A stretch of 64,000 nt of DNA, from the NCBI GenBank assembly GCA_000165345.1, contig CM000433.1:1016901-1080900 (forward strand), read 5' to 3'. Of the stretch, positions 16,169-19,100 are shown in pieces. The position numbers are program-made. Each line of letters opens with the position of its first letter. The stretch's first letter is position 1.

Positions 16169-19100
16169 TGTAATAATATGGGAGGATTCAAATAATATAT
16201 CTTGAATATCATTTTCTCCATTATAAATTTGAGACATAGAATTGAGTATTGTATTAATAATATCAGTATTATTCAACCATAATGGTATTGAATTAGTTTC
16301 ATTATAATTTAATTGATTATCAGTAATATATTCTGAGTTGAATTTTAACTTTTTAGATTCTTTAAAATGTTTTTGATCATAGATATTTTTATATTTGGAA
16401 TGATGATTTGGTACTTCTTGGTTTAATATTAAATTAGTTAACTCTTTTTCTATGGATATATTAGAAATATCAAATAATTGTATGGGTATATTATTTTCAT
16501 TAATAAAACAAATCTCTAAAGGAATACCAGTTTTATTAACAATTCTATTATTTGATATAAGACAAAACAATTTTTCTTGTGAATTGATTGGTATTATTTG
16601 TCCAATAACATTTTTATACACGTAATTAGAATTATTAATATTTTCTTTTGTAAGTATTTTTTTCGATGATGATTTTCCATTTGTAGTAATTCCAGTTTTC
16701 TTTAATAATTTTTTCTCAAGATTTCTTTTAATTCCATTTTGGAAAGACTTCATTGAAGATTTAGAGAATGATTTTGAAATAGACTTGGCAATTGATTTGT
16801 TTAGGGGGGTGGGGTTAGAATTGGGAGGAATTGTATTTGAAGGAAAGGTAACAGTAGTAGAGATAGTTTGTCCTCCAGTAGACTCCTTTCCTACGGTACT
16901 TTTTCTAAGCTTTGTATTTTCCATATTTCTCACTTTTTCTTTTTTTTCTTCACCTTCTCGCTCTTCATACTCGTCTCCTTCTCCTCCCTCACCTTCTCCT
17001 CCCTCACCTTCTCCTCCATCTTCTCGTTCTCCTGCACCTTCTTGCTCTCCCTCTCTTCCCAGTATATAAGAGTCAAAATTAATATCTGAGAATAATCGGT
17101 TATAAGTTTCACTATTTTTAGATATTTTGCTTTTAAGGTAATATAAATTATGGAATGGAATAATTGTGTCTATATTTGCACTTGAGACAATATTATTTTG
17201 AAAATGAGTAAAACACAGACCATTAGGAAGAGGTCCAAGTACTTTATTACATAAATCATCTTGATTCTCCAAATCTTTATAGTATTTAAGTACATTTTGA
17301 GCGAGATTATAAGACTTATATACTGCCAGTACTCGTATAATAAACTCAATATCTAGATTTTTAAATTCTCTTTTAAGTCTCAAAACATCCATATCCATTG
17401 GAGCTGAGAAGATACAAAATAATTTATTAGGAAGAGAAACTCTGAGAAGTGGAATCTGTGAATTACAATTATTGACATATTTGAGTGATATAGAAGATAA
17501 TTTGGATTTGGATTTGAATCCTAGTTCTGAAATTGGTTTTTCATTTGATTGAGAGAAAGTCAGATCCATATTTTTATCAGAATTTAATTCAATTTTACTC
17601 CATTGATTACAAGGAGCCAACATAAAGAATTGCTTCAGATTAAATTCACAACCTTCACTCTCTTCTAATTTATCACCCTTGATTACAAAACAATAGTATG
17701 GGAATCCTGTCAAATTTAAATATTTAATAGAATTACTCTTGATAGAATCATCAATATTATGATGATCATGACTATGATTATGATCACGAATATGATCATG
17801 ATCACGATCACGATCACACGATCACGATCACAACCATGATCCAAATCATGATCTTTAAATTCAGACTCTTCTTCAATAATATTTCTTGGCTTTGAAAGAC
17901 TTTTTAATTCAATAACTGATTTATTATTGTAGTAATTATTACCCAATTTTATATCTTCATAATAGTTTCTAAAGTTGGATGATAAATTATTAGTATCTTT
18001 CTTATTATTATCACCAAATCCATAATAATAGTTATAATATGACATTAAAGCCTCAAGAATGCTTGGTTTAATATTAATTAAAACAGCTTTTGAAAATGTG
18101 GAATGAAGATATTTTCTATGTGATTTCTTGAAAGGCTTAACATATGGATCATAAAGAATTAAATGATCATAAAAGTAATATACTGAAAATATACATTTCT
18201 CTAAAATTGGTTCCCAAATTTGATGATTAATATCCAATATACTTATCTTCACATTTGCATCCTTAATTGTATGATTTGTTTTTATTGGTATTATTTCAAT
18301 TCTCCATTCAGGTATTGAAATCTCGAAATTTAACACTGGAAGATATCCTAATTCTTCTCTATTATAATAAAAATCATGGCAATTTCTTCTTCCTCCTCTT
18401 TTTCTTCTCCCTTCTCCCTTTATTCCTTCTTCTTCTTCTTCTTCCTCTTCTCCTCCACCTCCTCCTCCTTCTCCTTCATTGTAATCACTTATTAAATTGA
18501 TACTAAACTTATTTAAACTTATCTTTAAATCATAAATTCTACGAATTGGAGGAGGACCTAAAGTCTTAATTCTTGATTTATTCTCCTCAAAATCATCCTC
18601 TGATTCTTGTTTAACTAAGTCTTTCTCATCTTGATCAGATATTAAATCACTTTTTAGTGTTGAAGTATATAAAGGAGAAATTGTTGGACCATCTGAAAAT
18701 AAATTCTTTGCAATTTCCAATAAAATTGATAATAATGGAGGAGAAATTGAAATATTTAAATCATCAACTTTAATTAAAAGTATAAGTTCACTTAATGATA
18801 TTAAAGTTGTATATATATCTGGAATATCTTTTATATTACTTAAATATCTACCACTTATTAATATATTAAATGATTCTGCTATAATAATTTTCTTATAATC
18901 ATTTGAAATTCTTGGTATTTCATAAGTCATTGGTATATATAATAATTGATTTTTATCCATATTAATTATTGGTTTTAATAAACTATTTGAAAATGTATTT
19001 AAATTAATCAATTTTGACTTTGAAATTTGTAATTCTTCTCCTTTTTTATTCAATTCATTATTCTCAATTTCTGTAAAATATACCAAACTATTTAAAAGAT

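What the first reader, a model, noticed from the sequence alone, without database searches (positions are those of the whole stretch)
17760..17880. Two-nucleotide frame offset inside a (GATCAC)n His-Asp repeat splits the giant VPS13-like gene
ORF 17716..25986 ends in junk (VIVIVIMIIF...) that is the HD-repeat read out of frame. The plus-strand sequence gatcacgatcacgatcacACgatcacgatcac has an extra dinucleotide at about 17816-17817. Removing 2 nt gives DRDRDRDHDHIRDHNHSHDHHNIDDSIKSNSIKYLNLTGFPYY, which runs in frame into ORF 10862..17713. This is either a genuine disabling or slippage mutation in a microsatellite within an essential-looking gene, or an assembly indel.
Basis: seen in the sequence. 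Interest (0 to 1): 0.5.

Follow-up and report, generated by a model that had tools for sequence, protein, structure and literature searches.

The report
Assembly indel splitting a VPS13-like gene
The two extra bases that break this giant lipid-transfer (VPS13-like) gene of Cryptosporidium parvum are missing from four other assemblies of the same species, so the break is almost certainly a sequencing or assembly error in an old draft.

Summary
The + strand at 17800-17831 reads (GATCAC)3-AC-(GATCAC)2. The extra dinucleotide moves the minus-strand reading frame from ORF 17716..25986 into ORF 10862..17713.

The window is not Dictyostelium-like. It is Cryptosporidium parvum of IOWA type, 99.9% identical to the IOWA-ATCC assembly. 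It has the marks of the 2004 Sanger assembly: patches of scattered N, fixed-size gaps and a chimeric join.

Four independent chromosome-level C. parvum assemblies all lack the dinucleotide. Three carry five in-frame hexamer units and one carries seven. In IOWA-ATCC and in the IOWA II T2T assembly, the three window ORFs (C, A and B) form one uninterrupted ORF of 5,427 codons. Orthologues in six other Cryptosporidium species are single proteins of 4,986-5,202 aa.

All indels that separate a more distant isolate from the window inside this gene are multiples of 3, once the window's own +2 is set aside.

A second frame break in the same gene, at 25954-25981, lies inside an N patch.

Verdict: this is an assembly or base-calling artefact (about 0.86), not a biological frameshift.

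One practical point remains. Two current reference annotations still carry the legacy split into three gene models (389 + 2691 + 2253 aa), although their DNA is continuous.

The parts
17815..17819 (-). CACAC (+ strand). It contains the window-private extra dinucleotide (AC/CA on +, GT/TG on the coding strand) that shifts the frame by +2.
   Evidence: The dinucleotide is absent from L005, L006, L007, L008, L018 and L019.
17747..17841 (-). Imperfect hexanucleotide array (GATCAY on the + strand). It encodes an (Asp-Arg)n(Asp-His)n linker that is specific to the C. parvum lineage. The perfect units lie at 17800-17831.
   Evidence: TRF. The unit number is polymorphic: five units in three assemblies and seven in L008. 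The array is absent from the orthologues of C. felis, C. bovis, C. xiaoi, C. muris and C. andersoni.
17716..17817 (-). Out-of-frame 'junk' tail of ORF A (VIVIVIMIIF...LLNI*). This is the repeat and the following linker read in the wrong frame.
   Evidence: Codon log-likelihood is negative for frame A and positive for frame B in this stretch.
17716..25986 (-). ORF A, the middle part of the gene. It corresponds to legacy model cgd5_4490, which starts at the ATG at 25791 and is 2,691 aa long.
   Evidence: Both primers of MLVA locus cgd5_4490_2941 map to 22771-22880. That is 2,934 nt downstream of the ATG at 25791.
10862..17821 (-). ORF B with its open upstream extension, forming the C-terminal 2,300 codons of the gene. 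It includes the region that matches the VPS13A/VPS13C C-terminus. The legacy model starts at the ATG at 17623 and is 2,253 aa long.
25949..27148 (-). ORF C, the N-terminal chorein / VPS13_N part of the same gene (legacy 389-aa model).
   Evidence: Pfam VPS13_N 1.7e-38. PDB matches to VPS13C, VPS13 and VPS13A N-termini, with E from 3e-18 to 4e-13..
25893..25981 (-). Patch of scattered N. It contains one surplus base (28 nt where 27 are expected) and causes a second, +1 frame break between ORF C and ORF A.
   Evidence: There is a 1-nt gap at 25954 against L018 and L019. IOWA-ATCC reads AWRLEYILKPLTFHLNISHSPVNNELKG continuously through this stretch.
14844..14923 (-). A second (GATCAY)n Asp-Arg/Asp-His array in the same gene. 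It is in frame in the window, and L008 has one unit fewer.
   Evidence: TRF. L008 has a 6-nt deletion at 14887-14892.
22771..22880 (-). The (Ser-Gln)n VNTR used as typing marker cgd5_4490_2941, with its primer sites.

Best explanation
The window is a legacy draft of Cryptosporidium parvum IOWA, most likely the 2004 Sanger assembly. ORFs C, A and B (27148 down to 10862, minus strand) are one gene. It encodes a VPS13-family bridge-like lipid-transfer protein of about 5,427 aa.

The consensus of this draft carries two bases too many inside a short, naturally length-polymorphic (GATCAY)n coding microsatellite. That error truncates ORF A with an out-of-frame tail and starts ORF B. It is a base-calling or consensus error, not a property of the organism.

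How the error arose is inferred and not shown. One possibility is a miscall of CAC as CACAC. Another is a consensus built from reads misaligned within the repeat, or from reads of different repeat length in a non-clonal oocyst preparation.

The error produced the legacy split gene models. ORF A is cgd5_4490. By gene order, B would be cgd5_4480 and C would be cgd5_4500; this is my inference.
For: 1. Identity of the window. Positions 1-20453 are 99.88% identical to C. parvum IOWA-ATCC (CP044418.1). The only non-N differences lie in the N patch at 6211-6246 and in the CA at 17815-17816.

2. Alignment A1. All four chromosome-level assemblies lack the dinucleotide: GCA_015245375.1, GCA_031892065.1, GCA_035232765.1 and GCA_048859185.1. 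Three have (GATCAC)5. One has seven units, which is 12 nt more and still in frame.

3. All four have an uninterrupted ORF from the shared stop codon to the end of the locus, 3,195 codons. In IOWA-ATCC and in the BGF T2T assembly, a single ORF of 5,427 aa runs from the ATG of ORF C to the stop of ORF B. Their proteins are identical to each other.

4. Two assemblies annotate one gene, of 5,401 and 5,405 aa.

5. Orthologues are single proteins: C. felis 5,202 aa, C. bovis 5,037, C. xiaoi 5,040, C. muris 4,987, C. andersoni 4,986 and C. serpentis 4,995. They are colinear across the junction, with conserved blocks on both sides.

6. Natural indels in this gene in the more distant isolate L008 are -3, -6, -3, +6 and -3 nt against the window. 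At this array L008 is +12 nt against the in-frame allele of L005-L007. All are multiples of 3.

7. The draft is demonstrably error-prone here.
- It has N patches at 6219-6257, 25893-25981 and 35553-35981.
- A second frame break in the same gene lies inside an N patch.
- Eight window-private substitutions cluster at 25558-25737 and at 20966/20984, while two independent assemblies agree with each other.
- The 2004 assembly is documented to have 18,558 ambiguous bases, 10 gaps and misjoins whose boundaries lie at N stretches or gaps (PMC8744675).

8. ORF B stays open for 2,283 codons, although off-frame stop density is 0.07-0.18 per codon. It contains 1,218 sites where a single substitution would create a stop. 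The chance of remaining stop-free is 0.13 at 0.5% neutral divergence and 0.017 at 1%. The break therefore cannot be old.
Against: - No reads of the original project could be examined. A genuine private or subclonal allele in the DNA sequenced for this draft cannot be formally excluded.
- There is no N within about 8 kb of the site, so it does not lie in a flagged low-quality patch.
- The T2T paper lists frameshift variants in CpIOWA II genes against BGF reads. That list does not name cgd5_4490. Either the variant caller missed a repeat-embedded indel, or the assembly compared there differs from this window.
- That the window is the 2004 assembly is inferred from its features, not shown by an accession number.
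Confidence: 0.86

Rival explanations
1. The frameshift is real but private or subclonal. Under this view a 2-nt slippage (CAC to CACAC), or a 14-nt duplication, arose in the parasite line or oocyst population sequenced for this draft. It would truncate the VPS13-like protein after about 3,100 aa.
For: - The array is a true, length-polymorphic microsatellite with five or seven units.
- IOWA lines do differ by small indels. The literature reports 143 variants between the ATCC and BGF lines, 108 of them indels (PMC8744675).
- The site is not in an N patch.
- An intact ORF B is compatible with a very recent event.
Against: - Three near-identical assemblies (IOWA-ATCC, BGF T2T and GCA_031892065.1) and one more distant isolate all lack it.
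- Every other indel seen in the gene preserves the frame.
- The gene is conserved as a single ORF across the genus.
- The same draft has another frame break, and clustered private substitutions, in this very gene.
Confidence: 0.1
2. There are two (or three) genuinely separate genes, as in the legacy annotation. ORF A would end at 17716, and ORF B would be translated on its own from the ATG at 17623.
For: The IOWA-ATCC and BGF T2T annotations still list separate models of 389, 2,691 and 2,253 aa.
Against: - The DNA of those very assemblies is one continuous 5,427-codon ORF. The 2,691-aa model spans 8,074 nt, which is not a multiple of 3, as expected of a lifted-over legacy model.
- The 92 nt between the models have coding-like GC (0.315, against 0.19-0.23 for real intergenic DNA).
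- Frame B is open and coding-like from 17821.
- The chorein N-terminus lies only in ORF C, and the VPS13 C-terminal match lies only in ORF B.
- Orthologues are single proteins.
Confidence: 0.02
3. The two extra bases are real and are bypassed during expression, by a short intron, by programmed -1/+2 ribosomal frameshifting, or by transcriptional slippage.
For: Many GT...AG pairs of the right length class exist by chance around the site.
Against: - No candidate has a GTAAGT- or GTATGT-type donor (consensus recalled from general knowledge, not derived from introns of this genome). Their GC is 0.24-0.37, similar to the coding stretches of the window.
- There is no X_XXY_YYZ heptamer and no homopolymer of 6 or more between 17860 and 17716.
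- The other assemblies simply lack the two bases.
Confidence: 0.02

Closest known systems
Known errors of the 2004 C. parvum IOWA II reference assembly (CpIRef), as described by Baptista et al. 2022 (PMC8744675) and in the 2025 T2T paper (PMC12179316)
   Same: Both the window and CpIRef show ambiguous bases, physical gaps, indels and frameshifts that split genes, and relocations whose boundaries lie at N stretches or gaps on chromosome 5. The window shows all of these.
   Different: This particular indel, and the resulting three-way split of the gene, are not named in the passages I read. A full-text search found no paper holding cgd5_4480 or cgd5_4500. Two modern annotations still keep the split.
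VPS13 family of bridge-like lipid-transfer proteins (yeast Vps13, human VPS13A-D)
   Same: - The N-terminal chorein / VPS13_N domain is present (Pfam 1.7e-38; PDB VPS13C 3e-18).
- The C-terminal region matches VPS13A and VPS13C residues near their C-termini.
- The protein is giant.
- Sources name relatives as VPS or VPS13: the C. felis orthologue and the more distant Neospora homologue (35% identity over residues 1-123).
   Different: About 5,000 aa between the two ends match no Pfam family and no PDB sequence, even when searched as a profile. At 5,427 aa it is much longer than yeast or human VPS13. It also carries lineage-specific low-complexity inserts such as the Asp-Arg/Asp-His array.
Coding microsatellites (VNTRs) of C. 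parvum used for MLVA typing, e.g. cgd5_4490_2941
   Same: The gene already hosts a validated 6-bp coding VNTR at 22771-22880. The Asp-Arg/Asp-His arrays at 17747-17841 and 14844-14923 also vary by whole hexamers between isolates.
   Different: Real alleles change by whole units and stay in frame. The window's allele is +2 nt, which no other assembly shows.

Membership tests
Assembly / base-calling artefact | The variant is absent from independent assemblies of the same strain lineage. | tested here: met
   It is absent from IOWA-ATCC, IOWA II BGF T2T, GCA_031892065.1 and GCA_048859185.1.
Assembly / base-calling artefact | The surrounding assembly shows other demonstrable errors of the same kind. 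| tested here: met
   A +1 base inside the N patch at 25954 breaks the same gene. Private substitutions are clustered. The N patch at 6219-6257 breaks the neighbouring gene. A chimeric join lies at the 100-N gap.
Assembly / base-calling artefact | The original reads or traces disagree with the consensus, or are of low quality at the site. | not testable with these tools
   No read data for the source assembly are accessible.
Genuine disabling frameshift (pseudogenisation) | The downstream reading frame shows decay (stops, further indels), or the allele is shared by related isolates. | tested here: not met
   ORF B is intact for 2,283 codons. The allele was found in no other assembly.
VPS13 family | N-terminal chorein / VPS13_N domain. 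| tested here: met
   Pfam PF12624 scores 132.5 bits against a cut-off of 80. PDB matches to VPS13C, VPS13 and VPS13A N-termini.
VPS13 family | C-terminal ATG2_C-like / VPS13 C-terminal region. | tested here: met
   phmmer matches VPS13A (chain residues 1401-1477 of 1625, E 2.2e-7) and VPS13C (residues 3512-3614 of 3777, E 6.7e-6). The match to ATG2A is weak (E 0.069). No Pfam hit reaches threshold.
VPS13 family | VAB (SHR-BD) repeat domain and the central repeating beta-groove rod. | tested here: inconclusive
   There is no Pfam hit in the central 5,000 aa. A profile of the central 1,400 aa finds nothing in the PDB. Fold-level comparison was not possible, because structure prediction accepts only exact window sequences.
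Programmed ribosomal frameshift site | A slippery heptamer X_XXY_YYZ in the zero frame within the overlap of the two frames. | tested here: not met
   None is present between 17860 and 17716.

The most novel reading that the evidence does not exclude
The +2 allele could be real. In that reading, the Asp-Arg/Asp-His hexamer array is a mutable site at which occasional out-of-register slippage produces parasites with a truncated VPS13-like protein, and the 2004 DNA preparation contained such a subpopulation.
Probability: 0.08. Interest if true: 0.35.

Novelty: not a real feature. Interest (0 to 1): 0.1.

Why it matters
As biology it does not matter, because the parasite's gene is intact.

It has a modest practical value. 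The old indel, together with the N-patch error 8 kb upstream, created three legacy gene models of 389, 2,691 and 2,253 aa. The middle one is cgd5_4490, which hosts a marker used in outbreak typing.

The IOWA-ATCC and IOWA II T2T annotations still carry these three models, although their DNA encodes one 5,427-aa VPS13-like protein. Anyone who uses those models for orthology, proteomics, knock-out design or selection scans is working with fragments.

Tried and rejected
- The three homologous-protein searches found nothing: the junction-spanning 850 aa, the N-terminal 298 aa, and a cleaner 389-aa junction segment.
It was run on the exact N-terminal ORF instead, and that run found the orthologues.
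- Pfam found nothing on ORFs A and B, whole or in chunks, even at E <= 1, apart from a chance RKP_N hit. It also found nothing on the whole C. muris orthologue.
- A PDB profile search with a four-species alignment of the central 1,400 aa gave no hit.
- Exact-product look-ups failed for ORF B from its TTG, for the 2,691-aa legacy ORF A and for the AsnA ORF. The cluster look-up of the three legacy products also failed.
- Rfam and tRNA scans of the window found nothing.
- A literature search on TTTAGG telomeres was uninformative.
- My first assumption, that this was a Dictyostelium-like genome, was wrong. I based it on 21% GC and Asn-rich proteins, and checked it against the Dictyostelium VPS13 literature. 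I abandoned it once the neighbouring genes and exact matches identified C. parvum.
- Intron rescue and programmed frameshifting were considered and rejected.
- Population evidence from Logan read assemblies could not be obtained for the junction. Only window-encoded exact products can be looked up, and those contigs break before reaching the gene.

Full report
**What is in the sequence**

On the + strand, 17800-17831 reads GATCAC GATCAC GATCAC AC GATCAC GATCAC. It is flanked by GATCAT-type units. TRF reports the hexamer array and, as a side effect of the extra two bases, a perfect 14-nt repeat at 17803-17832.

The gene is on the minus strand.
- Frame A (ORF 17716..25986) reads ...EFKDHDLDHGCDRDR. 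It then turns into VIVIVIMIIFVIIIIVMIIIILMILSRVILLNI* and stops.
- Frame B is open from 17821. It reads CDRDRDHDHIRDHNHSHDHHNIDDSIKSNSIKYLNLTGFPYY... and continues into ORF 10862..17713.

Removing two bases yields one ORF of 5,040 codons. A codon-usage log-likelihood trained on the rest of the gene changes sign between 17850 and 17820. Frame A is coding-like upstream of that point and frame B is coding-like downstream.

The perfect GATCAC units encode Asp-Arg, and the GATCAT units encode Asp-His.

**What the gene is**

The ORF just upstream (25949..27148) carries the VPS13_N / chorein domain (Pfam 1.7e-38). It also matches the N-termini of VPS13C, VPS13 and VPS13A in the PDB.

The last 880 aa of ORF B match the C-terminal region of human VPS13A (E 2.2e-7) and VPS13C (E 6.7e-6).

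The roughly 5,000 aa in between match nothing in Pfam, and nothing in the PDB by sequence.

The N-terminal and C-terminal hallmarks of one family therefore lie on opposite sides of the frame break.

**Where the window comes from**

I first took the 21% GC and the Asn-rich proteins for a dictyostelid. That was wrong. Several observations pointed to Cryptosporidium instead.
- The neighbouring genes are thymidine kinase, a TSP1/EGF protein, GMP synthase, AsnA and a PALP enzyme.
- The window ends in a (TTTAGG)n array.

Exact-product look-ups settled it. The TK and TSP1 proteins are encoded identically in four chromosome-level assemblies. The literature identifies two of them: C. parvum IOWA-ATCC (GCA_015245375.1) and the C. 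parvum IOWA II BGF T2T assembly (GCA_035232765.1).

Window 1-20453 is 99.88% identical to IOWA-ATCC.

The window also has these features:
- patches of scattered N at 6219-6257, 25893-25981 and 35553-35981;
- a 100-N gap and a 1000-N gap;
- sequence to the right of the 100-N gap that maps to the end of a different chromosome, CP044422.1.

This matches the published description of the 2004 Sanger assembly. That assembly has 18,558 ambiguous bases, 10 gaps and relocations on chromosome 5 with N stretches or gaps at their boundaries. The paper also reports that cgd5_4510 is really located on the replicated ends of chromosomes 1, 7 and 8.

That the window is this assembly is an inference from these features.

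**The decisive comparison**

All four other assemblies lack the dinucleotide in an alignment of the repeat (A1). Three have five GATCAC units. One (GCA_048859185.1) has seven, which is 12 nt more and still in frame.

Over 20.4 kb, the window differs from IOWA-ATCC only in the N patch at 6211-6246 and by this CA.

All four assemblies have an uninterrupted ORF through the junction.

With 10-kb flanks, IOWA-ATCC and BGF T2T each show one ORF of 5,427 codons. It runs from the ATG of window ORF C to the stop of window ORF B, and the two proteins are identical.

Over the whole gene, the window's private differences from these two concordant assemblies are:
- the Ns;
- one surplus base in the N patch at 25954, which causes the C-to-A frame break;
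- eight substitutions clustered at 25558-25737 and at 20966/20984;
- the dinucleotide at 17818-17819.

**Evolutionary support for one gene**

The exhaustive search with the N-terminal ORF found full-length orthologues:
- C. felis, 5,202 aa;
- C. bovis, 5,037 aa;
- C. xiaoi, 5,040 aa;
- C. muris, 4,987 aa;
- C. andersoni, 4,986 aa;
- C. serpentis, 4,995 aa.

It also found Neospora VPS13 (5,407 aa).

These proteins are colinear across the junction. The conserved blocks ...WEPILEKC..YDPYVKP... and ...YLNLTG(F/L)PYYCF... flank a variable linker. The Asp-Arg/Asp-His array is an insertion in that linker specific to the C. parvum lineage.

In the more distant isolate L008, the indels inside this gene are -3, -6, -3, +6 and -3 nt against the window. 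At this array L008 is +12 nt against the in-frame allele of the other three assemblies. All are multiples of three.

ORF B stays open for 2,283 codons although off-frame stop density is 0.07-0.18 per codon. It contains 1,218 potential stop-creating substitutions, so it would rarely survive even 1% neutral divergence. The break therefore cannot be an old pseudogenising event.

**Alternatives**

*Intron.* Frame-restoring GT...AG pairs exist by chance. None has a canonical donor, by the general eukaryotic consensus as I recall it. Their GC (0.24-0.37) resembles the coding stretches of the window.

*Programmed frameshifting or transcriptional slippage.* There is no slippery heptamer and no homopolymer of 6 or more in the overlap of the two frames.

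*Separate genes.* The 92 nt between the legacy models have coding-like GC. The first ATG of frame B is 198 nt downstream of where that frame opens. The orthologues are single proteins.

*A real private or subclonal allele in the 2004 DNA.* This cannot be excluded without the reads. IOWA lines do differ by small indels, and the site is not N-flagged. I give it about 0.1.

One caveat applies. The T2T paper's list of frameshift variants in CpIOWA II genes does not name cgd5_4490. I cannot tell whether that reflects variant calling in a repeat or a different sequence version.

**Legacy annotation**

Both primers of the MLVA typing locus cgd5_4490_2941 map to 22771-22880 in ORF A. That is 2,934 nt downstream of the ATG at 25791. 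ORF A is therefore legacy gene cgd5_4490 (2,691 aa).

IOWA-ATCC and BGF T2T still list three models of 389, 2,691 and 2,253 aa. The middle model spans 8,074 nt, which is not a multiple of three. Their DNA nevertheless encodes a single ORF.

The other two assemblies annotate one gene of 5,401 and 5,405 aa.

**Verdict**

The frame offset is real in the window. It is an artefact of a legacy assembly and not a biological feature. Interest is low. The only residual value is the curation point that three legacy models should be merged into one VPS13-like gene.

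Noticed in passing
window 27413-27512 (100-N gap) and everything to its right: The scaffold join is chimeric. Window 1-27389 maps to CP044418.1 at about 721-750 kb. Window 27513-41797 maps to the end of a different chromosome (CP044422.1, 878-900 kb of 920 kb). This fits the published relocation of the old 'chromosome 5 end' (cgd5_4510 onwards) to replicated subtelomeres.
   Followed up: partly
window 25893-25981: An N patch inside the same VPS13-like gene contains one surplus base. It causes a second, +1 frame break between the 389-aa N-terminal ORF and ORF A. 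Six window-private substitutions cluster just downstream, at 25558-25737.
   Followed up: yes
window 2927-7677 (+), N patch 6219-6257: The neighbouring gene is also split in the window, into ORFs of 1,096 and 448 aa, by an N patch with indels. IOWA-ATCC DNA has one 1,582-aa ORF there, yet its annotation keeps 1,095 + 340 aa. Two other assemblies annotate 1,582 and 1,596 aa.
   Followed up: partly
L007/L019 (GCA_035232765.1), locus L007 4435-8952: In the BGF T2T assembly that same neighbouring gene is broken into three ORFs by single-base differences. The intergenic stretch corresponding to window 7955-8061 is heavily divergent. These may be residual long-read errors or real changes in that line.
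   Followed up: no
L018/L019 479-16762 (= window 27148-10862): The current IOWA-ATCC and BGF T2T annotations still carry three gene models (389, 2,691 and 2,253 aa) across what is a single 5,427-codon ORF in their own DNA. The middle model is 8,074 nt long, which is not a multiple of 3.
   Followed up: yes
window 62230-64000: A telomere-like array of TTTAGG/TTTAGGG units runs to the end of the window. It contains many degenerate units (C substitutions, odd lengths) and a T-rich interruption at about 63735-63770. Some of this may be low-quality base calling.
   Followed up: no
window 17747-17841 and 14844-14923: The same gene holds two (GATCAY)n arrays encoding Asp-Arg/Asp-His. Both vary by whole hexamers between isolates: 5 against 7 units, and minus one unit in L008. 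They could serve as additional typing markers next to the established cgd5_4490_2941 VNTR at 22771-22880.
   Followed up: partly
window 32600-36000, 37100-41900, 44500-53000: Long stretches of 10-16% GC contain no ORF of 90 aa or more. This is unusual for the compact C. parvum genome. The stretches lie in the relocated subtelomeric part. Around 34040-35160 there are internal inverted and direct repeats, seen as self-hits in the comparison with L016.
   Followed up: no
window 44901-45900: A 1000-N gap.
   Followed up: no
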